From an uncultured Actinomycetes bacterium (lineage in GTDB: Bacteria; Actinomycetota; Acidimicrobiia; IMCC26256; PALSA-555): a stretch of DNA of 64,000 bases. The position numbers and the translations under genes are program-made. Within the stretch, counting starts at the first letter, position 1; every line of letters starts with the position of its first letter. The notes beneath the pieces are model-generated. The model was not told the origin of the DNA. It was given only the letters and a program-made list of their open reading frames with translations, and made no database searches. The stretch covers positions 1,608,570 to 1,672,569 of the forward strand of contig CAVSWH010000001.1 of the NCBI GenBank assembly GCA_963731625.1. Reading direction: 5' to 3'. Below are positions 1,646 to 63,305 of this stretch, in pieces.

Positions 1646-4219
<2,574 letters not shown>

Positions 4220-4244
4220 CCTGGGCCTACCTCCACATCGGTCA

Positions 4245-4269
4245 AAGTTGACAACGTCTGTATCAACTT
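4245..4269. promoter_or_regulatory. HAIR-like HspR operator upstream of clpB
   Basis: AAGTTGACA-acgtctg-TATCAACTT: inverted repeat with 7-nt spacer, matching the HAIR architecture (CTTGAGT-N7-ACTCAAG). Confidence 0.75.
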
Positions 4270-4298
4270 CGTATTCCGGTGAACGGTCCCGGCCGGCC

Positions 4299-4685
4299 TC
4301 AGCGCCGGACGGGGACGATGGTGGTGCTGACCGGGACGAGCGACCGGCGGTAGTGGCGGTGGACGGCGTCGACCTGGTCCCGCGCGTCCCGGCGGGCCTG
4401 CTCGAGGGCCGCCTGCAGCTCGGCGATTCGGTCGTCGGCGTCCTCGAGGTCGGCTTCGAGGTCGAGGATCTTGCGGACCCCGGCGAGGCTCACGCCCTCG
4501 TTGGTCAGCTCCTGGATGCGGCGCAGCAGTGTGATGTCCCGGTCGGAGTAGCGGCGGCTGCCGCCCTGGGTGCGGCTGGGCTCGATGAGCCCCTTGCGCT
4601 CGTAGATCCGCAGCGTCTGCGCGTGGACCCCGGCCAGCTCGGCGGCCACCGAAATGATGTACAGCGCTCGGTCCCGGTCGTCCAT
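4299..4685 (-). CDS. hspR: Heat-shock repressor HspR (MerR family)
   Basis: [39 protein letters not shown]; located after dnaJ. Confidence 0.96.
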
Positions 4686-4708
4686 CTGTCCTCCTCCCCC
4701 TTACCTCA

Positions 4709-5866
4709 CTACACGCCGAGGCGTTCGCGGGGGTTCTCTGGCAACTGCTCGGCGAGCGCGGTGACCGCGGCGCGCTGCTCGTCGGTGAGCGCCGTGGGCA
4801 CGACGACGTCGAAGGTCACGAGCAGGTCGCCCGCGTCGCCCTTGGCCGGGTGGATGCCGCGCCCGCGCACGCGCACCGTCTTGCCCGCCTGGGTGCCCGC
4901 CGGGACCTTCACGGTGACCGGCCCGTCGAGGGTCGGGACCTTCACCTGGGTGCCGAGCGCGGCCTCGGGGAACGTCACCGGCACCGTGACGGTGAGGTTC
5001 GTCTTGCCCTGCCGGGCGAAGATCGGGTGCGGGCCGACGTGGACCCGGACGAAGAGGTCGCCTGGCGGGCCGCCGTTGCGGCCGGCCGCGCCCCGGCCCT
5101 TCACCCGGATGCGCTGCCCGTCGCGGACGCCGGCGGGCATCCGCACCTTCACGTCGCGGCGGCGCCGCTCGACGCCGGTGCCGCGGCACTTCTTGCAGCG
5201 GTGCTCGATCACCTCGCCACGGCCGCCACACGTCGGGCAGACCTCGGAGAACGAGAAGGGCCCCTGGTCGACGGCCACCGCGCCGGTGCCGCCGCAGGTG
5301 GTGCAGGGCTGCGGGAACGTGCCGGGCTCGGCGCCGTTGCCGCCGCACACCGAGCAGGTGGCGTCGGAGGTCACGCCCACGCTCGTCGTCACCCCGTGGA
5401 CGGCGTCGACGAAGTCCAGGTGGAGCTCGGTCTCGAGGTCGGCGCCCCGCACCGGGCCGGTCGGCGCGCGGCCGCGCCGGCGGGTACCCCCGCGAGCGCC
5501 GCCACCGAAGAGGTTGCCGAGCAGGTCGCCGAGGCCGCCGCCGTCGTCGAAGTGGAACGTGGCGTTCCCGAAGCCGGGCCCAAACGGCCCGTTTCCGTCG
5601 CCGAAGCTGCTCGGGCCCGCGCCCGAGGCGACCATCTCGCGGACCTGGTCGTACTCCTTGCGCTTCTCGGCGTCGCCGAGCACCTCGTGCGCCGCCGAGA
5701 TCTCCTTGAAGCGGTCCTCGGCCGCGGTGTCGCCCGCGTTGGCGTCGGGATGGTTCTGCTTGGCGAGACGCCGGTAGGCGCGCTGGATCTCGCGGTCGCT
5801 CGCGCCGGATTCGACGCCGAGCACCGCGTAGTAGTCCTTCTCGAACCAGTCGCGCTGGGGAGCCAT
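4709..5866 (-). CDS. dnaJ: Chaperone DnaJ
   Basis: J-domain with HPD, G/F region, four CxxCxGxG zinc repeats. Confidence 0.98.
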   Translation of the reverse strand: MAPQRDWFEKDYYAVLGVESGASDREIQRAYRRLAKQNHPDANAGDTAAEDRFKEISAAHEVLGDAEKRKEYDQVREMVASGAGPSSFGDGNGPFGPGFGNATFHFDDGGGLGDLLGNLFGGGARGGTRRRGRAPTGPVRGADLETELHLDFVDAVHGVTTSVGVTSDATCSVCGGNGAEPGTFPQPCTTCGGTGAVAVDQGPFSFSEVCPTCGGRGEVIEHRCKKCRGTGVERRRRDVKVRMPAGVRDGQRIRVKGRGAAGRNGGPPGDLFVRVHVGPHPIFARQGKTNLTVTVPVTFPEAALGTQVKVPTLDGPVTVKVPAGTQAGKTVRVRGRGIHPAKGDAGDLLVTFDVVVPTALTDEQRAAVTALAEQLPENPRERLGV

Positions 5867-5873
5867 GGGGGTG

Positions 5874-6410
5874 TCAGTCCGTCGTCTGGTGGGCCACCTT
5901 GACCATCGCCGGGCGCAGCACCTTGCCCTTCAGGCGGTAGCCGGTGCGGACGAGGTCGGCCACGACCGGGTCGCCGCCGGGCCCGCCCTCCTGGAGGACC
6001 GCCTCGTGGATGTTCGGGTCGAAGGGGACGTCGGTGTCGTCGATCCGCTCGAGCCCGGCCTTCTCGAGGACGGCGACGAGCTCCGCGAACACGAGCTCGA
6101 TTCCTTTGCGGACGCGCTCGTCGGCGTCCTCGAGCTGGGTCACGGCCAGCGCCGCGCTGTCGAGGACCGGCAGCAGCTGCTCCACGAGCGTCTCGTTGGC
6201 CCGGGCGATCGCCTCGGTCTGCTCGCGGAGCATCCGCTTGCGGTAGTTCTCGAAGTCGGCCTGGACGCGCTGCGCGAGGGTCAGCAGCTCGTCGCGCTCC
6301 TTGCCGAGCGCGGCGAGGTCGGCCTCGAGGTCGGCCGGGACCTCACCCGAGGCGACGGGCGACGTGAGCACGTCCTCCTCGTCCTCGTTGATCGACTCGG
6401 ACTCGGGCAT
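5874..6410 (-). CDS. grpE: Nucleotide exchange factor GrpE
   Basis: QADFENYRKR, FDPNIHEAV, GYRLKGKVLRPAMVKV; TAATG overlap with dnaK stop. Confidence 0.97.
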   Translation of the reverse strand: MPESESINEDEEDVLTSPVASGEVPADLEADLAALGKERDELLTLAQRVQADFENYRKRMLREQTEAIARANETLVEQLLPVLDSAALAVTQLEDADERVRKGIELVFAELVAVLEKAGLERIDDTDVPFDPNIHEAVLQEGGPGGDPVVADLVRTGYRLKGKVLRPAMVKVAHQTTD

Positions 6411-8254
6411 TAGGCGCTGCGCTCTTCACCGTCGTCGACGATCTCGGCGTCGGCGACCTCGTCGTCCGACGGCGGCGGTGCGTCCCCGCCCGGGGCGGAG
6501 GACGCCGCGTTCTGCTGGGCCTGGGCCGTCTGGTAGAGCCGCTGCGCGAACTCCTGGCTGGCGGCGAGGAGTGCCTCGTGCTTCTGGCGCACGGCGTCGA
6601 TGTCGGTGCCGGCGAGCGCGGTCTTCAGGTCACCGAGCGCGGCCTCGATCTTCGTGCGGTCGTCCGCCGAGACCTTGTCCGCCTGCTCCTTCAGGAGCTT
6701 CTCGGTCTGGAAGACGAGCGAGTCCGCGTTGTTGCGGGTCTCGGCCTCCTCGCGCTTGCGGCGGTCCTCCTCGGCGTGCGCCTCGGCCTCCTTCACCATG
6801 CGGTCGATCTCGTCCTTGCCGAGCGCGGTGCCGCCGGTGATCGTCATCGCCTGCTCCTTGCCCGTCCCGAGGTCCTTCGCGCTCACGTGCACGATGCCGT
6901 TCGCGTCGATGTCGAACGTGACCTCGATCTGGGGCACGCCGCGGGGCGCGGGCGGGAGCCCGACCAGCTGGAACGTGCCGAGCATCTTGTTGCGGTACGC
7001 CATGTCGCTCTCGCCCTGGAGCACCTTGATCTCGACACTGGGCTGGTTGTCGTCCGCGGTGGTGAACACCTCGGAGCGCTTCGTCGGGATCGTCGTGTTC
7101 CGCTCGATGAGCCGGGTCATGATCTGACCCTTCGTCTCGATGCCGAGCGACAGCGGCGTGACGTCGAGGAGCAGGACGTCCTTCACGTCGCCCTTCAGCA
7201 CGCCGGCCTGGATGGCGGCGCCGACCGCGACGGCCTCGTCGGGGTTGACGCCCTTGTCGCCCTCCTTGCCGGTGAGGTCGCGCACCAGGTCCTGCACGGC
7301 GGGCATGCGGGTGGACCCGCCGACGAGGATGACCCGGTCGATGTCGCTGCTCTTCAGGCTCGCGTCACGGATCGCCTGCTCGAAGGGCCCCTTGCAGGAC
7401 TCGAGCAGATCCGCGGTGAGCTCCTGGAACTTGGCCCGCGAGAGGCTCAGCTCCAGGTGCAGCGGCCCGTCCTGGGTCGCCGTGATGAACGGCAGGTTGA
7501 TCGACGTCTCCTGCAGCGAGGAGAGCTCGATCTTGGCCTTCTCGGCGGCTTCCTTCAGACGCTGCGTCGCCATCTTGTCGGCCGCCAGGTCGACCCCGTG
7601 GGCACCCTTGAACTCGGTGACCATCCAGTCGATGACGCGCTGGTCCCAGTCGTCGCCGCCGAGGTGCGTGTTCCCGGCCGTCGCCTTGACCTCGAAGACG
7701 CCCTCGCCGAGGTCGAGCACGGACACGTCGAAGGTGCCCCCGCCGAGGTCGAACACGAGGATGGTGAGGTCGTGCTCCTTGTCGAGGCCGTACGCGAGCG
7801 CGGCGGCCGTCGGCTCGTTGATGATCCGGAGCACGTCGAGGCCTGCGATCTCGCCGGCCTCCTTCGTGGCCTGGCGCTGGGCGTCGTCGAAGTAGGCCGG
7901 GGCGGTGATCACGGCCTGGGTGACCGTGTCACCGAGGTACGCCTCCGCGTCCCGCTTCAGCTTCTGGAGGATGCGGGCCGAGATCTCCTGGGCCGAATAG
8001 TGCTTCCCGTCGATGTCGATGTTCCACGACGTGCCCATCTCGCGCTTCACGGAGCGGATGGTGCGGTCGGGGTTGGTGATCGCCTGGCGCTTCGCCACCT
8101 CGCCGACGAGGACCTCGCCGGTCTTGGAGAACGCCACGACCGACGGGGTCGTGCGGGACCCCTCGGCGTTGGGGATGACGGTCGGCTCGCCCGCCTCGAG
8201 GATCGAGACGACCGAGTTCGTGGTGCCGAGGTCGATGCCGACGGCCTTGGGCAT
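6410..8254 (-). CDS. dnaK: Chaperone DnaK
   Basis: [28 protein letters not shown] motifs; RBS GGAGG upstream. Confidence 0.99.
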
Positions 8255-8280
8255 GGTGGATGTGCCTCCGTGTCGAAAAC

Positions 8281-8301
8281 CTTGAGTCTGACCGTATCAA
8301 C
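8281..8301. promoter_or_regulatory. HAIR-like HspR operator upstream of dnaK
   Basis: CTTGAGT-ctgaccg-TATCAAC: one perfect HAIR half-site, 7-nt spacer, and a second half-site identical to the clpB variant. Confidence 0.85.
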
Positions 8302-8377
8302 TTTGGTGCTATCGCACCTATTCCCGGCTCTCGGACCCGCCCGGGCGCCGTTTGACACCGGGGGGTACATTTCCGGC

Positions 8378-8803
8378 ATGCCCCGGCGAGGCGCCATGCC
8401 CGACCTGGCGGAGGTCCCCCTCTTCTCGGCCTGCTCCAAGAAGGAGCTCCAGCTGATCGGCCGGCGCACCGAGCGGCTCCACGTCGAGCCCGGCAAGATC
8501 CTCGTCCGGGAGGGCGCCGCGGGGGCCGAGTTCTTCGTGATCATCAGCGGCGAGGCCGACGTGTCCGTCCGGGGCCGGACGGTCGCCACCCTGGGACCCG
8601 GGGACTTCTTCGGGGACCTCGCCCTCCTCGACCGGGCGCCCCGCAACGCGACCGTGACGGCGAAGACCGAGATGGAGCTCGCGGTCCTGGGCCAGCGCGA
8701 GTTTGCCGCGATGATCGACGAGGTGCCGGGTTTCGCGCACAAGCTGCTGAGCGGGCTCGCCCACCGGCTGCGCGAGTACGACGCGAAGAGCGCGCCCCAC
8801 TAG
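8378..8803 (+). CDS. Stand-alone cyclic-nucleotide-binding domain protein
   Basis: C-terminal part of track ORF 6578..8803: VPLFSACS...LGPGDFFGDLALLDRAPRNATVTA. ATG 8378 lies 6 nt after TACATT (alternative start ATG 8396). Confidence 0.9.
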   Translation: MPRRGAMPDLAEVPLFSACSKKELQLIGRRTERLHVEPGKILVREGAAGAEFFVIISGEADVSVRGRTVATLGPGDFFGDLALLDRAPRNATVTAKTEMELAVLGQREFAAMIDEVPGFAHKLLSGLAHRLREYDAKSAPH

Positions 8804-8946
8804 GGATGCGGGCCTTCTCGGCCTTCCAGTGCGGGCGGCCCCGGGTTGGGCGACGGGCACTGGTTCCGGCTTCGTGGCTCTCGGTCGGGCCCGCCGCCTG
8901 GGGCGGGTGCGGTGCCGGGAGCTCCACCGGCGTTTTGCCACTCCGG
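8804..8946 (-). ncRNA. Putative TnpB omegaRNA/reRNA scaffold
   Basis: Minus strand after tnpB stop reads AAACGCCGGTGGAG...GAAGCCGGAACC (canonical ACGCCTGTGGAG...GAAGCAGGAA with a compensatory T-A to G-C change). It is followed by a 7-bp stem CCAGTGC/GCACTGG (8826-8832 with 8857-8863) and a GGCC-GAGAA-GGCC hairpin. Confidence 0.65.
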
Positions 8947-10201
8947 CTACTCGACGGCGTGGGTTCGCGGGGGGCGTGGGTCGGGGAGAGCGAGGCGGGC
9001 GAGGTTGGTCGCGGCGTTGCGGTCACGGTCCACGACGATCCCGCATGCCGGGCAGACGAACGTCGGGGCTGATCCAAGGTGCTGGTGGTAGTGCCCGCAG
9101 GCTGAGCAGGTTTTGGAGGACCCGTACCAGCGGTCGGCGACGACGAGTCGGTTGGCATACCAGTCGGCTTTGTAGGTGAGCTGGCGGCGCAGTTCCCCGA
9201 AGCCCTGATCCGCGACCCGGCCGGCGAGGCGATGGTTGCGCAGCATCCCGGCGACGTGGAGGTCCTCGATCACGAGGGTCTGGTAGCGGGCGACCAGCCC
9301 GCTGGTCAGCTCGTGGAGCTGATGCTCGCGCCGGTGCGCGACTGTGGCGTGCAGACGTGTCAGGCGCGTCGTGGCGCGGCGGCGACCCGACGAGGCGGGC
9401 TTGGTTCTCGCCCAGCCTCGTTGGGCCCGCCGCAACCGGCGCTGGGCCCCATGGAGCGCGTTCACCCCCTCCCACTGCTCGAGAAGCCGACCGCGGGCAT
9501 CCGCGACGCTGGCGAGGCGCCGCACACCCAGGTCCACCCCGACCGGTCCCGGTGCTCGGCCGCGGCGGCGATGCTCCGGGTGGAACGGCGCGGCCCGTCC
9601 GGCGACGCTCAGCCACCAGCGGCCCCGCCGATACGACACCGTCGTGGAGAGCACCTCGAAGCGACCCGCCGCCAGGAGCCGGCGCAGCCGCCGCGTGTCG
9701 TCATGGACCCGCACCCAGCCCAGACACGACACCCGCAGCGCCCGACCCTCGACGCGCAGCTGTTCAGGATGGCGCAACCGGAACCGCGGCGTCGTGCGCT
9801 TGCGGGCCTTAAACACCGGGAACCCCACCCGGGCGCCCCACCGGCGCCCGGCCCGCGACGCCGCCCAGTTCGCCAACCCCGCCGCCAGATCCACCGCGGC
9901 GCACTCGAACACCGCGCTCGGGATCTCCTTTCCCCACGCCAGCTCCCGGCGCCGCCGATAGGCGCTCCGAATCGAGCGCGTACTTCGACCATGCCACCTG
10001 GGTTGTTGGCGCCCCCAACGTGGCGCGCTCCGCGGCGCGGGCATCCAAGCCCGCCTTCACCTCACCCAACAACGCGTTGAAGACGAACCGCGACGCCCCC
10101 GCCCAACGGACCAGCCGCGCCTCCAACACCGGGGACACAACAACAGCGAAACGAAACCCCACCGGCCGCCAACCATTACGACCACCGACCCCAGACACCA
10201 C
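8947..10201 (-). CDS. tnpB: RNA-guided endonuclease TnpB (IS607/IS1535-like), split by one +1 indel near 9972-9977
   Basis: N-part in ORF 9809..10201 (GFRFAV...RWAGASRFVFNALL); remainder in ORF 8947..10044 with RuvC GVDLG, VIEDL, DRDRNAATNL and Zn finger CSACG/CPACG. Confidence 0.9.

Positions 10202-59682: not shown

Positions 59683-59692
<10 letters not shown>
58568..59692 (+). CDS. DUF3566 protein with long Ala/Ser/Pro/Arg-rich N-terminal extension
   Basis: KVDLWSVTKLSLCF...FYNIFAELFGGVEITV; canonical position after gyrA. Confidence 0.88.
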
Positions 59693-59756
<64 letters not shown>

Positions 59757-60217
59757 CGACGAGGACTTCACCGTTGGCGCCGGGTTGGGTTCACCGTTGC
59801 GGCTCCGGCGGGGACATCTGGCGCGACATCATCGCCACCGAGCCTTGAGGACCCAGTAGCCGACTGCCGGTTCTACCGGAGGCCTTGGGCCGAAGCTCGT
59901 TACGGGTCGGTTCGTTGCCGGGTGGCGCGACGAAGCCGCCTGAAGGTCTCGCGAGCCCAACCTGCGCGCGGGCCCGTTGTGCGAGTACTGCCCCGCACTT
60001 TGTCGGTGCGAGGTTGGCGCCACCTTCATGGCGGAGCGCAACCAGTAGTCACCAACCGCGTCGTGGCCCGGGCGCAGGAATGATGAATCGTGATCGGCTA
60101 GCCGGGGTCGGAACGGAGCGCTGATCATGTGCGTGGCACGCGTAGAGCTCCGATCGGTCGGTGTTAGCGTTCGGGCGTTCTTGGCCTGCGGGCCAGGCGA
60201 AGGCGGAGGGAGCCCGG

Positions 60218-61738
60218 GTGCGGTCGGTGAGGGGTCCGGTCGCGGCTGGGCTGGTCGGGCTGGTGGTGGTGGCGGGGTCGCTGGTCGCGATCGGGGTGGC
60301 CCCCGCGGGGGCAACATCCCTGGTGCACAACGAGGCGGAGTTCCGGGCCGCGTGGACCAATAACGCCGAGACCGAGATCGACCTGGCCAACGACATCACC
60401 TTCACCACGCCCTGTGCCAACCCCAGCGGCTCCACCGGGGCGGTCCGGGCCACCACGACCCCGTTGACCGTGAACGGCAACGGGCACACGCTCACGCTCT
60501 GCACCAACGCTGGGAACGGCGTGCTCGAACAGGACAGCTCGGGTGCGCTCACGTTCCAGAACGTCACCGTCACCGGTGGCACCGCGACGACCTCCCCCGG
60601 CATCGGGGGTGCGATCTTCACTGGCGGTGTGGTGACGGTGACGAACTCGACGTTCACCAACAACACTGCCGACGGCATCGGGGGCGGTGCGATCTTCGCT
60701 GACGGTGCAGCGGTGACGGTGACGAACTCGACGTTCACCGGCAACACTGCCCCCGGCGACGCCGGGGGTGCGGTCTTCGCTTTTGGTGTGGTGACGGTGA
60801 CGAACTCGACGTTCACCAACAACACCGCCGCCGGCAGCGGTGCGATCTTCGACGAGGGTGGTGCCGTGACGGTGACGAACTCGACGTTCACCGGCAACAC
60901 CGCCCCCGGCGGCACCGGGGGCGCGATCGTGACTGGCGGTGTGGTGACGGTGACGAACTCGACGTTCGCCAACAACACTGCATCCAGCGGCGGGGGTGCG
61001 ATCGGCACCGGTAATGCGGTCATGGTGACGAACTCGACGTTCACCGGCAACGCCGCATCCAGCGGCGACGGGGGTGCGATCACTGGCGCAGCGGTGACGG
61101 TGACGAACTCGACGTTCACCGGCAACGCCGCATCCAGCGGCGACGGGGGTGCGATCGGCACCGCCTTTCCGGTCACGGTGACGAACTCGACGTTCACCAA
61201 CAACACCGCGAGCACCGGGGGTGCGGTCTTCGCCAGCAGTGCGCTGAAGGTCGCATATTCGACGTTGACCGGGAACGTCGCCCCAACCGGAAGCGCAGTG
61301 GCGTCAGATACTTCGATCACGTTGTTTGGCTCGGTGTTCGTGAAGCCCGCGGGGACGGGGCCCCTGTGCGCTGGAACGAGCAACTCGTTGGGGTACAACT
61401 ACGCGAACGAGACCCTGAACACCTGCAACCTGATCGCGACGGGGGATAGCAGCCTCGACGCGAACGACCCGCTGCTCGGTGCGCTGGCCAGCAACGGTGG
61501 GCCCACCCAGACCCAGCTGCCCCAAGACGGGCCCAGCCCACTGATCGACGCGATCCCCAACGCGCACTGCGGGGACGGCAACACCCTCGCCGGGTTCACG
61601 ATCACGACCGACCAGCGCGGCCTGCCCCGCCCCGACACGGCCAGCCCCAACTGCGACATCGGCGCCGTGGAGGTGCAGCCACCTGCGGCGGCGACCACCA
61701 CGACAACGCCTGGCCTCACCGCCGCGTTCACCGGGTAG
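60218..61738 (+). CDS. Secreted beta-helix (Pmp/adhesin-like) protein with choice-of-anchor-Q-type C-domain, ending AAFTG-stop
   Basis: RBS GGAGG then GTG 60218; signal ...GVAPAGA; eight GA(I/V)...VTVTNSTFTxN repeats; DPLLGALASNGGPTQT...DQRGLPRP...CDIGAVEV; tail TTTTPGLTAAFTG. Confidence 0.88.
   Translation: MRSVRGPVAAGLVGLVVVAGSLVAIGVAPAGATSLVHNEAEFRAAWTNNAETEIDLANDITFTTPCANPSGSTGAVRATTTPLTVNGNGHTLTLCTNAGNGVLEQDSSGALTFQNVTVTGGTATTSPGIGGAIFTGGVVTVTNSTFTNNTADGIGGGAIFADGAAVTVTNSTFTGNTAPGDAGGAVFAFGVVTVTNSTFTNNTAAGSGAIFDEGGAVTVTNSTFTGNTAPGGTGGAIVTGGVVTVTNSTFANNTASSGGGAIGTGNAVMVTNSTFTGNAASSGDGGAITGAAVTVTNSTFTGNAASSGDGGAIGTAFPVTVTNSTFTNNTASTGGAVFASSALKVAYSTLTGNVAPTGSAVASDTSITLFGSVFVKPAGTGPLCAGTSNSLGYNYANETLNTCNLIATGDSSLDANDPLLGALASNGGPTQTQLPQDGPSPLIDAIPNAHCGDGNTLAGFTITTDQRGLPRPDTASPNCDIGAVEVQPPAAATTTTTPGLTAAFTG
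60608..61215 (+). repeat. Eight intragenic ~70-80 bp repeats (core GTGACGAACTCGACGTTC)
   Basis: Near-identical DNA cores encode VTNSTF in each beta-helix coil. Confidence 0.9.
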
Positions 61739-61743
61739 CGGCG

Positions 61744-61759
61744 CCGTTCGGGCGAACGG
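61744..61759 (+). terminator. Hairpin after beta-helix gene
   Basis: CCGTTCG-gg-CGAACGG, 5 nt after stop; no U-tract. Confidence 0.45.
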
Positions 61760-61764
61760 GGCCG

Positions 61765-61795
61765 TGTAGAAATCGGTCGCTGAGGGTGTAGATCC
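61765..61795 (+). repeat. 31-bp module copy 1
   Basis: TGTAGAAATCGGTCGCTGAGGGTGTAGATCC. Confidence 0.9.
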
Positions 61796-61873
61796 ATGCC
61801 CCGACCATGTGGCTCCGCCTGCGCCGGCAAGGGCGTAGCGTCCTGCCGTTCGGTCGAGGCGGAGGAGACGCCG

Positions 61874-62947
61874 GTGCGGTTGCGCATCGCTAGTTTCGGT
61901 CTTGGTGCGGTCGCGACCGCGCTGTTCGGCGTCGTGGCGTTGGCAGGTTCGGGCCCAGCGGGGGCGGCGTCGACGACGCTGTACTCCTCCCTCACCGGGT
62001 TTACCGGGTTTGTGCCGAGCGCGGCGACGGTGCCTGCGGGGATCTGTTTCGTGACGATCGCCGCTGCGGGTGGGCAGGGAGGGACCACGAGTGTCGCCGG
62101 TGGCGCCGGCGCGTCGGTCGCGGCGCGTGTCGCTGCCGCGCCGGGGAGCGTCTTGGCCGTGCTCGTCGCTGGCGCGGGCGGCCTTGTAGATGGCGGCACC
62201 GGTGGCGGGGGCGGGGCTGGGGGCGGGGAAGGCGAGGGGGGTGGTGGGGCATCGGCTGCGAGCTCGAATGGTGTGCCGCTGGTCGTTGCCGGGGGCGGCG
62301 GTGGCGCGAGCAACGGCGTAGGCGGCGCGGGTGGACCCATTGCGGGGAACGCGAGTCCGGGCGGCGGCGGTGATCCCGGCGGCGGCGGGACCGGCGCCGG
62401 GGTGAGCGGCGCGGGTGGGTTCCGCGGCGGCACGGGTGGGACGGTGACCACGACCGGGGCCGCGACCGGGGCCGTCGGCGGCAGCGGTGGCAACGGTGAC
62501 GGCAACGCAGGTGGTGGCGGCGGAGCGGGGACCTTCACGTCGGCGCCTGGAGCGAACGGCGGCGCGGGCGGCGCGGGATCGGGCGCGGGCGGAACCGGCA
62601 GTGCCGGCAGCGGAAAGGGCGGTGCGGGCGCCGCGCCCGGCGGCACCGGCGGGAGCTCCAGCGATCAAGGCGGCGGCGGTGGTGGCGGCGCCCCCGGCGT
62701 GGGCGGTGGTGGTGGTGGTGTCGATGGTGGCGGGGGCGCAGGCTACGCGGGCGGCGGCGGAGGGGGCGGCGCAGGTTCGGGAGGAGGCGGGGGATCGTCG
62801 TTCGCCGCGCCCGGCGCGACCGGGATCCAGAACCTCGGACCCAACACCGGAGACGGCAGCGTCGCGATCACCTACGACCCGAGCACCGACGCCTGCCCGG
62901 TTGTCGCGCCGGCCGCGGTCGCCCCGACGGCTGCGTTCACCGGGTAG
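61874..62947 (+). CDS. Secreted glycine-rich protein ending AAFTG-stop
   Basis: RBS GGAGG then GTG 61874; signal ...GSGPAGA; ATVPAGICFVTIAAAGGQGG glycine-rich domain; GDGSVAITY; tail PVVAPAAVAPTAAFTG. Confidence 0.87.
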   Translation: MRLRIASFGLGAVATALFGVVALAGSGPAGAASTTLYSSLTGFTGFVPSAATVPAGICFVTIAAAGGQGGTTSVAGGAGASVAARVAAAPGSVLAVLVAGAGGLVDGGTGGGGGAGGGEGEGGGGASAASSNGVPLVVAGGGGGASNGVGGAGGPIAGNASPGGGGDPGGGGTGAGVSGAGGFRGGTGGTVTTTGAATGAVGGSGGNGDGNAGGGGGAGTFTSAPGANGGAGGAGSGAGGTGSAGSGKGGAGAAPGGTGGSSSDQGGGGGGGAPGVGGGGGGVDGGGGAGYAGGGGGGGAGSGGGGGSSFAAPGATGIQNLGPNTGDGSVAITYDPSTDACPVVAPAAVAPTAAFTG

Positions 62948-62950
62948 CGG

Positions 62951-62964
62951 CGCGGTTCACCGCG
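62951..62964 (+). terminator. Hairpin after glycine-rich gene
   Basis: CGCGG-ttca-CCGCG, 3 nt after stop; no U-tract. Confidence 0.4.
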
Positions 62965-62975
62965 AGCGGGACCCT

Positions 62976-63006
62976 TGTAGAAATCGGCCGCGGAGCGTGT
63001 AGATCC
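62976..63006 (+). repeat. 31-bp module copy 2
   Basis: TGTAGAAATCGGCCGCGGAGCGTGTAGATCC, 28/31 identical to copy 1. Confidence 0.9.
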
Positions 63007-63072
63007 GTGGTCCACGCATCTGCACGTCACCTGTGCCAGTAGGGCTGTCCGCAACGGTGAAGTCCTCACGAC

Positions 63073-63103
63073 GAGAGAAATCGGTCGCTTAGGGTGTAGA
63101 TCC
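63073..63103 (+). repeat. 31-bp module copy 3
   Basis: GAGAGAAATCGGTCGCTTAGGGTGTAGATCC, 27/31 identical to copy 1. Confidence 0.88.
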
Positions 63104-63167
63104 GTGGCTCACCCATGCGGTTCCACCCGCGCTTGCCAGTGCTGCCGGCAACGATGAAGCCTTCACG

Positions 63168-63305
63168 ATGAGAAACGCTCGTCGCATCGCCCTGGTCGTG
63201 CTCTGCGCGCTCCTCGCCGGCATCGTCGTGCGCCTGCGCGGTAAGGGCAGCGTCCCGCCCACCAACGGCGGCTGGCGGGAGCTCGAGGGCCCCGACTTCC
63301 GGTGA
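63168..63305 (+). CDS. 45-aa single-TM small protein
   Basis: Below track cutoff. MRNARRIALVVLCALLAGIVVRLRGKGSVPPTNGGWRELEGPDFR; stop overlaps the next GTG (GTGA). Confidence 0.7.
   Translation: MRNARRIALVVLCALLAGIVVRLRGKGSVPPTNGGWRELEGPDFR

What the first reader, a model, noticed from the sequence alone, without database searches (positions are those of the whole stretch)
59756..63072. Transposase-less 3.3-kb element with perfect 16-bp TIRs and 5-bp TSD inserted at the tRNA-Ile discriminator base
Seen: tRNA-Ile...GCCCC-ACGAC-[GAGGACTTCACCGTTG ... CAACGGTGAAGTCCTC]-ACGAC. A second subterminal copy TTCACCGTTGCGG (59790-59802) matches CCGCAACGGTGAA (63049-63061). Cargo is only two FTG-tailed surface proteins, and no transposase or integrase lies anywhere in the window. 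Known: 5-bp TSDs come from Tn7/Mu/Tn3-type transposases and tRNA 3' ends are Tn7-like targets, but those ends start TG or GGGG, not GAGG. Inference: a non-autonomous, tRNA-targeted element of an unassigned family delivering adhesin cassettes next to oriC. Caveat: the flanking identity can also be read as a 9-bp direct repeat (CACGACGAG, 59755 and 63067), i.e. a recombinase core.
Basis: partly seen in the sequence, partly recalled or inferred. Interest (0 to 1): 0.8.

Follow-up and report, generated by a model that had tools for sequence, protein, structure and literature searches.

The report
Transposase-less transposon docked at tRNA-Ile
The 3.3-kb segment is a real mobile element: a cargo-carrying copy, stripped of its transposase, of an undescribed transposon family that always inserts a fixed five bases after the end of a tRNA gene.

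Summary
tRNA-Ile(GAT) ends at 59756. A perfect 16-bp inverted repeat (59761-59776 / 63052-63067) is flanked by ACGAC on both sides, and the cargo is two secreted proteins.

- Relatives about 94% identical carry a single ACGAC and lack the element.
- Relatives about 85% identical have a fully naive site, with the tRNA 2 nt from the next gene's ATG.
- Other Acidimicrobiia carry full-length elements at the same tRNA-Ile position, with the same ends (GAGGTCTTCACCGTTG; two TTCACCG repeats 23 nt apart on the tRNA side, one on the far side).
- In one of them, 7.0 kb long, the flanking 5-mer is ACCAC/ACCAC. The repeat is therefore host-derived, a true target-site duplication.

These autonomous elements encode an unannotated DDE transposase. 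It has Y-x2-R-x3-E-x6-K spacing and its model's best fold match is Tn5 transposase. Beside it lies a protein with a tyrosine-recombinase fold that lacks the usual Arg-I and Tyr nucleophile.

A sister copy of the window's element still holds the last ~45 codons of the transposase gene. A degenerate older right end (63073-63164) shows repeated insertion at this site. More distant family members sit at tRNA-Thr and tRNA-Ala.

Verdict: a non-autonomous cargo transposon of a new tRNA-targeting family.

The parts
59683..59756 (+). tRNA-Ile(GAT), intact; no CCA encoded. It is the target landmark.
   Evidence: ARAGORN; Rfam RF00005 76.4 bits.
59756..59760 (.). Left copy of the 5-bp target-site duplication ACGAC (discriminator A73 plus 4 nt of trailer).
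   Evidence: A single ACGAC is present in element-free relatives. The 5-mer differs between hosts: ACCAC/ACCAC in L374.
59761..59776 (+). Left (tRNA-proximal) terminal inverted repeat GAGGACTTCACCGTTG.
   Evidence: Conserved as GAGGTCTTCACCGTTG in L374, L379 and L320.
59787..59802 (+). Inner direct copy of the end motif (GGGTTCACCGTTGCGG), 23 nt from the outer one; presumed second transposase-binding site.
   Evidence: The same 23-nt spacing is seen in L374, L379, L320, L006, L382 and L383.
59761..59946 (+). Left-end segment shared (about 94-96%) with the sister element in L006/L260. In those loci it is followed by a remnant of the transposase gene 3' end; here the remnant has been replaced.
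   Evidence: blastn. The L006 remnant translates to ...FADWIKDPARRRRKPRRRKLF...AAAANSPP, against the P0003 C-terminus ...FERWIADPSRRRRKPRRSNALL...ATNANSPP.
60218..61738 (+). Cargo gene 1: secreted beta-helix protein (signal peptide, pectate-lyase-like adhesive domain, PMP repeats, choice-of-anchor-Q, C-terminal ...AAFTG).
   Evidence: The 506-aa gene call is on record as P0200.
61724..61834 (+). Partial copy of the transposon's right subterminal region (hairpin, then TAGAAATCGG..GTGTAGATCC) with no terminal repeat. It marks the junction of two cargo modules.
   Evidence: Homology with L006 resumes at 61831.
61874..62947 (+). Cargo gene 2: secreted glycine-rich protein ending ...AAFTG.
   Evidence: 89% identical DNA is in the L006 element. 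No Pfam or NCBIfam hit.
62933..63051 (+). Right subterminal region (hairpin, then TAGAAATCGGCCGCGGAGCGTGTAGATCC, then a ~45-nt spacer). Conserved in all right ends, including the 7-kb autonomous element.
63052..63067 (-). Right terminal inverted repeat (CAACGGTGAAGTCCTC on the + strand).
63068..63072 (.). Right copy of the 5-bp target-site duplication ACGAC.
63073..63164 (+). Older solo right end of the same family: subterminal region plus degenerate repeat CAACGATGAAGCCTTC (63149-63164). It is followed by ACGAT (63165-63169), its own right target copy.
   Evidence: The same remnant (112 nt) is all that is present in L002-L004 and L008. L006/L290 still keep its left end.
63168..63305 (+). Host 45-aa ORF, translationally coupled to the next gene. 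It is the original right-hand neighbour of the tRNA.
   Evidence: The exact protein occurs in many contigs. It starts 2 nt after the tRNA in naive sites and is conserved in L374.

Best explanation
Window 59761-63067 is a non-autonomous, transposase-deleted cargo transposon, comparable to a 'mobile insertion cassette'. It belongs to a family whose full-length members encode a Tn5-like DDE transposase plus a catalytically degenerate protein with a tyrosine-recombinase fold.

The family inserts in one orientation at a fixed position: 5 bp past the last acceptor-stem base pair of a tRNA gene. Staggered cuts there duplicate the discriminator base plus 4 nt.

Shown:
- the ends, and flank 5-mers at both ends of two elements that are identical within each element but differ between hosts;
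- empty sites in relatives;
- autonomous relatives at the same site;
- a transposase-gene remnant in a sister copy;
- stacked older remnants at the site.

Inferred:
- The DDE protein does the chemistry, binding the TTCACCG(T/G)TG repeats (two on the tRNA side, one on the far side).
- The conserved right subterminal region (hairpin plus a promoter-like pair of GTGTAGA repeats) terminates cargo transcription and re-drives the displaced downstream operon.
- The window's copy could move only if a full-length copy elsewhere in the genome supplies the proteins.
For: Anatomy.

Presence and absence in relatives. The gap from tRNA to ORF is 2 nt in L001, L005, L007 and L009 (flanks 84-90% identical, about 85-86% where more than 1 kb aligns). 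It is 114-120 nt in L002-L004, L008 and L010 (~94% identical, one ACGAC), 1883 nt in L006 and 3411 nt in the window.

Autonomous relatives at tRNA-Ile carry the same repeat. L374: ACCAC|GAGGTCTTCACCGTTG ... CAACGGTGAAGTCCTC|ACCAC, 7026 bp. L379: ACGGT|GAGG. L320: ACGGA|GAGG.

Transposase. Alignment A2 shows conserved DWTD and GDxxxDxxY motifs and Y427-x2-R430-x3-E434-x6-K. Pfam gives sub-threshold DDE_Tnp_1 and DDE_Tnp_1_6 hits and NCBIfam a sub-threshold IS1182 hit. The model (pLDDT 75) has Tn5 transposase 1MUH as its top Foldseek match, at probability 0.99 but E = 5e-3 and TM 0.36-0.40.

Partner protein. The model (pLDDT 88) matches XerH, Cre and XerA at probability 1.0, but alignment A3 has no conserved Arg-I or C-terminal Tyr.

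Transposase-gene remnant in L006/L260.

More distant members at tRNA-Thr and tRNA-Ala share the two-repeat, 23-nt end architecture.
Against: No transposition was observed, and no excision or circle junction was looked for in reads.

The rest of the window's genome could not be searched, so a trans-acting source is unproven. The copy may be a fossil.

In L006/L260 the left flank is GCGAC against ACGAC on the right (4 of 5), preceded by an extra ACGAC.

The older remnant's flanks are ACGAC and ACGAT (4 of 5).

The minimal element in L383 has good terminal repeats (15 of 16) but unrelated flanks (CTTGA / GCGTA), with its right end inside a serine-recombinase gene.

The DDE triad was assigned from alignment motifs and fold, not tested. 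The Foldseek match to Tn5 transposase is weak (E = 5e-3, TM about 0.4).

Confidence: 0.85

Rival explanations
1. The element is a site-specific integrative element, or a cis-mobilisable remnant left by tandem accretion. It would be inserted by a tyrosine or serine recombinase that crosses over in a short core (CACGACGAG / ACGA) at the tRNA 3' end. The '16-bp terminal repeats' would then be the two recombinase-binding half-sites of attP.
For: The location at a tRNA 3' end and the tandem stacking are typical of integrase islands. Right ends loosely mimic the tRNA end (AAGCCCCCACGA against TAGCCCC-ACGA). Full-length elements encode a protein with a tyrosine-recombinase fold and a small Xis-like HTH protein. 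The tRNA-side 5-mer is always ACGAC while the ORF-side copy is ACGAT. L378 has a 16-nt direct repeat. L383 has no target duplication.
Against: The recombinase-like family lacks a conserved Arg-I and has no conserved Tyr at the nucleophile position. A DDE transposase with a Tn5-like fold is always co-encoded. The flank 5-mer changes with the host (ACCAC, ACGAC, ACGGT, ACGGA) while the ends stay constant. An integrase core would have to co-vary inside the element to produce that pattern. The duplication covers only the discriminator base and trailer nucleotides, none of the tRNA's acceptor stem or body.
Confidence: 0.08
2. It is the same kind of element but a dead fossil. The insertion happened by transposition long ago, no source of transposase remains in this genome, and the perfect repeats are recent history rather than function.
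For: No transposase or partner gene is in the 64-kb window. The internal structure is chimeric. A decayed older copy lies next to it. The element is shared, with rearrangements, by L006, L260 and L290 (89-96% identical segments), so it is at least partly inherited vertically.
Against: Both 16-bp ends and both 5-bp target copies are perfect, whereas the neighbouring older end has 3 of 16 changes. Only 64 kb of a contig of at least 1.69 Mb could be examined.
Confidence: 0.35
3. It is not a mobile element. On this reading a chance inverted repeat in GC-rich DNA brackets an ordinary variable region formed by duplication and deletion of gene-plus-leader units.
For: 16-bp perfect inverted repeats are fairly common in this window. 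The intergenic unit is repeated three times. Many boundaries coincide with short CGACGA-type repeats that could drive slippage.
Against: The same end sequence and the same two-plus-one architecture recur at the same tRNA position in genomes only about 80% identical or less, next to a transposase gene. Precise empty sites exist. A transposase pseudogene remnant is present in the sister copy.
Confidence: 0.02

Closest known systems
Mobile insertion cassettes (MICs) and other non-autonomous transposon derivatives, e.g. MIC231 of the IS231/IS4 group and Tn3-family MICs in Xanthomonas (PMC2266710, PMC4337579)
   Same: Terminal repeats of an autonomous relative flank passenger genes with no transposase, and a target-site duplication is present. 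This is what the window's element is.
   Different: The parent here is not a known IS. Insertion is specific for site and orientation at a tRNA gene, and the ends are asymmetric (two sites against one).
IS4-superfamily DDE elements (IS4/Tn5, IS1182, IS701, ISH3, IS1634)
   Same: DDE transposase with a long insertion between the second D and the E, Y-x2-R-x3-E-x6-K spacing, and Tn5 transposase as best fold match. The 5-bp duplication matches the 'emerging' families IS701, ISH3 and IS1634 (PMC2266710).
   Different: All curated models score far below cut-off (IS1182 model 20-41 bits against 270). In that paper a full YREK motif goes with duplications of about 10 bp and about 5 bp goes with a broken motif, whereas this family combines the full spacing with 5 bp. 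The family also has a conserved second gene (recombinase fold) and a third small gene (DUF6788 or an Xis-like HTH), strict tRNA targeting, and kilobases of cargo.
Tn7-like transposons, including those that use tRNA genes as attachment sites (PMC8649781)
   Same: Works alike: one orientation, a fixed distance downstream of a conserved gene, a 5-bp duplication, asymmetric ends with repeated binding sites, defence or accessory cargo, and repeated use of one site.
   Different: No TnsA, TnsB, TnsC or TniQ homologues were called in the loci read (Pfam lists). The ends start GAGG, not TGT. The transposase belongs to another DDE lineage.
tRNA-integrating genomic islands, actinobacterial integrative elements and their integrase-less accretion remnants (CIMEs)
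   Same: Location at a tRNA 3' end, tandem accretion, cargo of surface, restriction-modification and arsenic-related genes, and a gene with a tyrosine-recombinase fold.
   Different: None of the tRNA's acceptor stem or body is duplicated, only the discriminator base and trailer nucleotides. The recombinase-like protein lacks the conserved catalytic Arg-I and Tyr. A DDE enzyme is present, and the flank 5-mer is host-derived.

Membership tests
Non-autonomous transposon / mobile insertion cassette | Terminal inverted repeats matching those of an autonomous element | tested here: met
   Window ends GAGGACTTCACCGTTG, against GAGGTCTTCACCGTTG / GAGGACTTCACCGTTG in the 7-kb L374 element.
Non-autonomous transposon / mobile insertion cassette | No transposase gene inside; passenger genes only | tested here: met
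   Only ORF1 and ORF2 lie inside. tblastn with the family proteins finds nothing in the window. The sister copy keeps a 3' remnant of the gene.
Non-autonomous transposon / mobile insertion cassette | Target-site duplication and an empty site in relatives | tested here: met
   ACGAC/ACGAC flanks. A single ACGAC is present in L002-L004, L008 and L010.
Non-autonomous transposon / mobile insertion cassette | Mobilisation in trans by the autonomous element | not testable with these tools
   Needs the whole genome or an experiment.
IS4-superfamily DDE transposase (parent element) | DDE triad in an RNase-H-like fold with an insertion domain | tested here: inconclusive
   Conserved D148/D151, D256/D260 and E434 in A2. 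The four best Foldseek matches are Tn5 transposase chains (probability 0.93-0.99; 1MUH 0.99, E 5e-3, TM 0.36-0.40). Pfam DDE_Tnp_1 passes its cut-off only in more distant members (P0076, 38 bits).
IS4-superfamily DDE transposase (parent element) | Y-(2)-R-(3)-E-(6)-K signature | tested here: met
   SYxRRxAxERxxxxxK in A2. Y, R and E are invariant or nearly so; K is present in 8 of the 11 sequences that cover that region. Definition from PMC2266710.
IS4-superfamily DDE transposase (parent element) | Passes a curated family model (IS4, IS1182, IS701, IS5...) | tested here: not met
   No NCBIfam hit for the close members. The IS1182 model scores 20-41 bits against a cut-off of 270 in distant members.
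Tn7-like transposon | TnsB-type transposase, TnsC ATPase, TniQ/TnsD target selector | tested here: not met
   The Pfam lists for genes in L374, L378, L379, L382 and L383 contain none of these families.
Tn7-like transposon | 5-bp duplication and orientation-specific insertion downstream of a conserved gene | tested here: met
   This is a resemblance in behaviour only.
Tyrosine-recombinase integrative element / CIME | Catalytically complete integrase (R-K-H-R-H/W-Y) | tested here: not met
   The recombinase fold is present, but the Arg-I position is Q, E, I, D, K or S, and no Tyr is conserved in the C-terminal helix.
Tyrosine-recombinase integrative element / CIME | att direct repeats that include part of the tRNA gene | tested here: not met
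   The repeat is 5 bp starting at the discriminator base, and it varies with the host.
Integron cassette array | intI, attI and attC sites (RYYYAAC ... GTTRRRY) | tested here: not met
   No integrase is in the window. The repeat sequences do not fit the core-site consensus (read by eye).

The most novel reading that the evidence does not exclude
The element reveals an undescribed family of transposons in Acidimicrobiia and other Actinomycetota. In it, a Tn5-like DDE transposase has been paired with a catalytically dead tyrosine recombinase that serves as a programmable reader of tRNA genes. Clades exist for tRNA-Ile, tRNA-Thr and tRNA-Ala. The pairing gives Tn7-like safe-site, one-orientation insertion by quite different proteins, and it turns the tRNA-Ile next to the replication origin into a dock where cargo modules stack and recombine.
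Probability: 0.45. Interest if true: 0.78.

Novelty: new variant of a known kind. Interest (0 to 1): 0.66.

Why it matters
Site-specific 'safe-harbour' transposition is known mainly from Tn7 and its CRISPR-associated relatives. An independent solution would show convergent evolution of tRNA-end targeting: an IS4/Tn5-type enzyme working with a domesticated, inactive tyrosine recombinase.

It would also blur the textbook division between 'transposase' and 'integrase' islands at tRNA genes. Some tRNA-linked islands now annotated through an 'integrase' gene may in fact be DDE transposons.

For annotation, the family is large and unnamed. There are 3844 cluster representatives at E <= 1e-3, and the close members that carry a source name are called 'hypothetical protein'.

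For the organism, the result explains a strain-variable pair of surface proteins about 10 kb from dnaA.

Tried and rejected
- **Public-collection scans for the end motif.** They yielded only L071, L260, L290 and the decisive L320. They cannot show that the ends are absent from sites other than tRNA genes.
- **Viral contigs**. No attP-like joined ends were sought successfully. The only recurrent hit (L130/L315) is an unrelated iteron array.
- **Recurrent 19-mer hit in Actinomycetota.** This turned out to be the core of AdoCbl riboswitches (RF01482, 45.7 bits): a chance resemblance, rejected as related.
- **Rfam scan of the element**. Nothing but the tRNA.
- **Sigma-70 promoter scan**. No hit, so the 'outward promoter' in the right subterminal region remains an inference.
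- **Exact-protein look-ups** of the DUF3566 protein, ORF1 and ORF2 found nothing on record.
- **Integron attC, Xer/dif-module and large-serine-integrase half-site readings.** Considered and dropped once the DDE gene, the host-dependent 5-mer and the degenerate recombinase active site were seen.
- **FTG tails as encoded by transposon-end motifs (TTCACCG).** Rejected: FTG is a conserved C-terminus of this protein family at large.
- **PDB sequence search with the transposase profile.** Nothing.
- **L382.** No inverted partner for the tRNA-Thr element's end within 17 kb.


Full report
**1. The observation**

The window holds tRNA-Ile(GAT) at 59683-59756 (ARAGORN; Rfam 76.4 bits). It is followed by ACGAC and then GAGGACTTCACCGTTG (59761-59776). 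The exact reverse complement of that 16-mer lies at 63052-63067 and is again followed by ACGAC.

- A second, inner copy of the motif (GGGTTCACCGTTGCGG, 59787-59802) lies 23 nt inside the left end.
- Two genes lie between the ends. ORF1 (60218-61738) has a signal peptide, a pectate-lyase-like adhesive domain, Chlam_PMP repeats and a choice-of-anchor-Q domain. ORF2 (61874-62947) is glycine-rich with a signal peptide. Both end in AAFTG.
- The setting is gyrB-gyrA-DUF3566-tRNA-Ile-[element]-45-aa ORF-327-aa gene-tRNA-Ala. By synteny with L001, dnaA lies about 10 kb upstream.
- One caution: perfect 16-bp inverted repeats within 10 kb are not rare in this ~70% GC DNA. There are 15 k-mer pairs against 3.6 in Markov-1 random sequence. 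The repeat alone would not prove anything.

**2. Empty sites exist**

The 45-aa protein is found with an identical sequence on many public contigs. The distance from the tRNA to its ATG falls into discrete classes.

| Gap (nt) | Loci | Flank identity to window |
|---|---|---|
| 2 | L001, L005, L007, L009 | 84-90% (about 85-86% where >1 kb aligns) |
| 114 | L002, L003, L004, L008 | ~94% |
| 120 | L010 | ~94% |
| 1883 | L006 | ~94% |
| 3411 | window | - |

- The ~94% relatives read tRNA-CCCC ACGAC GATCGG...
- The ~85% relatives read CCCC ACG ATG. This is a naive site in which the tRNA abuts the next gene.

**3. A second, older insertion sits beside the first**

- The 112-nt block present in the ~94% relatives, and at 63073-63164 in the window, ends in a degenerate right terminal repeat followed by ACGAT (CAACGATGAAGCCTTC in the window, CAACGGTGAAGCCCTC in L002).
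- L006 and L290 still carry this block's left end: GAGGGCTTCACCGGTG, with the inner repeat 23 nt away.
- Thus a first family member inserted at the naive site and decayed. The present element then inserted at the same place, between the tRNA and the remnant. The newest copy lies nearest the tRNA.

**4. Autonomous relatives**

The metagenome scan for the left-end architecture was mostly noise, but it gave L320. There the tRNA-Ile end is followed by ACGGA|GAGGTCTTCACCGTTGG...TTCACCGTTGG and, on the other strand, by a long ORF.

Its homologues number only 14 in the word-indexed search. All are about 500 aa, and those that carry a name are called hypothetical. They were located on contigs:

- **L374** (an Acidimicrobiia MAG). 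gyrB-gyrA-DUF3566-tRNA-Ile is followed by ACCAC|GAGGTCTTCACCGTTG, a 7026-bp element, then CAACGGTGAAGTCCTC|ACCAC and the 44-aa homologue of the small ORF.
- **L379.** Shows ACGGT|GAGGTCTTCACCGTTGG at tRNA-Ile.

The ends are constant while the flanking 5-mer varies with the host's tRNA trailer (ACGAC, ACCAC, ACGGT, ACGGA). Where both sides are known, the 5-mer is repeated. That is the signature of a 5-bp target-site duplication placed at a fixed distance from the tRNA body, starting at the discriminator base.

In L374 nothing beyond the 5-mer is shared between the flanks. This disposes of the 9-bp 'core' reading.

**5. The sister copy carries a transposase remnant**

- The window and L006/L260 share the first ~190 nt (94-96% identical) and the ORF2 segment (89%).
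- Between those segments, L006/L260 have 238 nt. Their reverse strand translates to ...FADWIKDPARRRRKPRRRKLF...AAAANSPP. This is clearly the C-terminus of the transposase (P0003...FERWIADPSRRRRKPRRSNALL...ATNANSPP).
- In the window that stretch is replaced by 59947-61830. This carries ORF1 followed by a partial copy of the right subterminal region (61724-61834).
- The window's element is therefore a deletion derivative that has also recombined with a second cargo module.

**6. The proteins of the full-length elements**

*Transposase.*
- Alignment A2 shows conserved A(V/I)DWTD and GD(L/V)LADS(A/G)Y motifs, a Cys-rich insertion, and SYxRRxAxER-x5-K. This gives Y-x2-R-x3-E-x6-K, the IS4 signature described in PMC2266710.
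- Curated models hit only below threshold: DDE_Tnp_1, DDE_Tnp_1_6 and IS1182.
- The AlphaFold model (pLDDT 75, pTM 0.77) has Tn5 transposase as its best PDB match. The probability is 0.99 but the match is weak (E = 5e-3, TM 0.36-0.40).
- A profile search finds 3844 cluster representatives at E <= 1e-3, so the wider family is large yet unnamed.

*Partner protein.*
- It lies immediately upstream, with start and stop codons overlapping (L374, L379, L383) or separated by a short gap (L378, L382), and encodes a protein of about 270-340 aa.
- Some sources call it 'integrase'. Its model (pLDDT 88) matches XerH, Cre and XerA at probability 1.0.
- In a 20-sequence alignment the Arg-I position (LGLGAGL-x) is Q, E, I, D, K or S, and no Tyr is conserved where the nucleophile should be. 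R-x-R-x-T-W is kept.
- I read it as a DNA-binding pseudo-recombinase. That is inference.

*Third gene.* A small gene always accompanies the pair: DUF6788 or an HTH_17/Xis-like protein.

**7. The family targets other tRNAs too**

- P0011's element sits at tRNA-Thr(TGT). P0012's sits at tRNA-Ala(TGC). In both, the transposase gene points at the tRNA 3' end, and two end repeats lie 23 nt apart.
- The L383 element is minimal: 3138 bp, three genes, terminal repeats matching at 15 of 16.
- Its flanks do not match (CTTGA / GCGTA), and its far end lies inside a serine-recombinase gene. I take this as a secondary rearrangement but could not show it.
- L378 is a divergent case. It lies next to a tRNA-like fragment and has a 16-nt direct repeat.
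- Cargo differs between elements: a Dcm/Vsr restriction-modification-like set in L374, arsenic-related genes in L382, and surface proteins here.

**8. Mechanism proposed**

The DDE enzyme binds the TTCACCG(T/G)TG repeats, two on the tRNA side and one on the far side. This asymmetry fits a fixed orientation. It makes staggered cuts 5 bp apart, starting at the discriminator base.

The recombinase-like protein supplies site recognition or transpososome assembly.

The conserved right subterminal region consists of a hairpin, then GTGTAGAAATCGG-N-GGTGTAGATCC, and is kept even in the 7-kb element. It probably ends cargo transcription and restarts transcription of the displaced small ORF. In naive sites that ORF must be co-transcribed with the tRNA. 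The consensus promoter scan found nothing there, so this step is the weakest.

The window's copy can move only in trans.

**9. Rivals**

- Recombinase-mediated integration (CIME-like) is disfavoured by the degenerate active site, the host-dependent 5-mer and the ever-present DDE gene. It is kept at about 0.08 because of L378, L383 and the Xis-like gene.
- 'Fossil' against 'mobilisable' cannot be decided from 64 kb.
- Chance is excluded by the comparative data.

**10. Novelty**

As an object, the window's element is a mobile insertion cassette, a known kind. Three literature searches did not turn up a description of its parent family: a Tn5-like DDE enzyme with a dead tyrosine recombinase, targeting a tRNA end at fixed distance and in one orientation. 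No curated Pfam or NCBIfam model captures it. I therefore rate it a new variant of a known kind, with moderate to high interest.

Noticed in passing
window 61724-61738 and 62933-62947; proteins P0200-P0319: 78 of the 120 best homologues of ORF1 end exactly in ...FTG at the C-terminus, typically V/I-x-P-[RKAT]-F-T-G-stop after a choice-of-anchor-Q domain. ORF2 and its L006 homologue end the same way. No transmembrane tail follows. This looks like an unrecognised extreme-C-terminal sorting or anchoring signal in Acidimicrobiia and relatives.
   Followed up: partly
L001 9976-10003; also L005, L007, L009: In naive sites the ATG of the conserved 45-aa ORF starts 2 nt after the tRNA-Ile discriminator base, with no room for a promoter or ribosome-binding site. 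The mRNA may be released as a near-leaderless transcript by tRNA 3' processing.
   Followed up: no
L011 4488-4557 (also L016, L017, L023, L028, L035, L043, L066, L077, L100, L102): The terminal-repeat pattern also matches the core of AdoCbl riboswitches (...CUGUCCCGCAACGGUGAAGCCCUC...). RF01482 scores 45.7 bits there, just under its gathering score of 50, so these riboswitch variants are missed at Rfam's threshold. The resemblance to the transposon end (about 21 of 23 bases) is taken as chance.
   Followed up: partly
L130 1860-1990 (= L315), viral contig IMGVR_UViG_3300014208_000065: An array of at least four iterons TGGGCTTCACCGTT in both orientations. It shares the 11-mer of the transposon ends but its context is unrelated and was not examined.
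   Followed up: no
L378 3800-4620 and 7519-7800: A divergent family member (P0008, about 36% identical) with ends TTCACGAAAGG lies next to a tRNA/tmRNA-like 3' fragment (14.8 bits). It is bracketed by a 16-nt direct repeat CCTTCGCCTACACCTT instead of a clean 5-bp duplication.
   Followed up: partly
L383 6188-9325: A minimal 3138-bp autonomous element (DUF6788, recombinase-like protein, transposase) lies at tRNA-Ala with repeats matching at 15 of 16 but unrelated flanks (CTTGA / GCGTA). Its far end lies inside the 3' end of a serine-recombinase gene of a neighbouring island.
   Followed up: partly
L374 748-7773; L382 about 2000-9700: Cargo of full-length elements: a Dcm methylase, a 392-aa protein and a Vsr endonuclease (restriction-modification-like) in L374. 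L382 carries an arsenic-resistance-like set (HTH_5 regulator, methyltransferase, MIP channel, LMWPc phosphatase).
   Followed up: no
L006 38-50 and 1699-1722: Extra 5-mers lie beside the element in the sister locus: CCCC ACGAC GCGAC [element] ACGAC GATCG ACGAC [older element]. They could be footprints of excision and re-insertion, or slippage of the CGACG repeat.
   Followed up: no
window 60597-61282: ORF1 contains eight or nine tandem 75-81-nt repeats (the VTVTNSTFT[NG]NTA... PMP-type units). This is a likely source of length variation among homologues (308-506 aa among close relatives).
   Followed up: no
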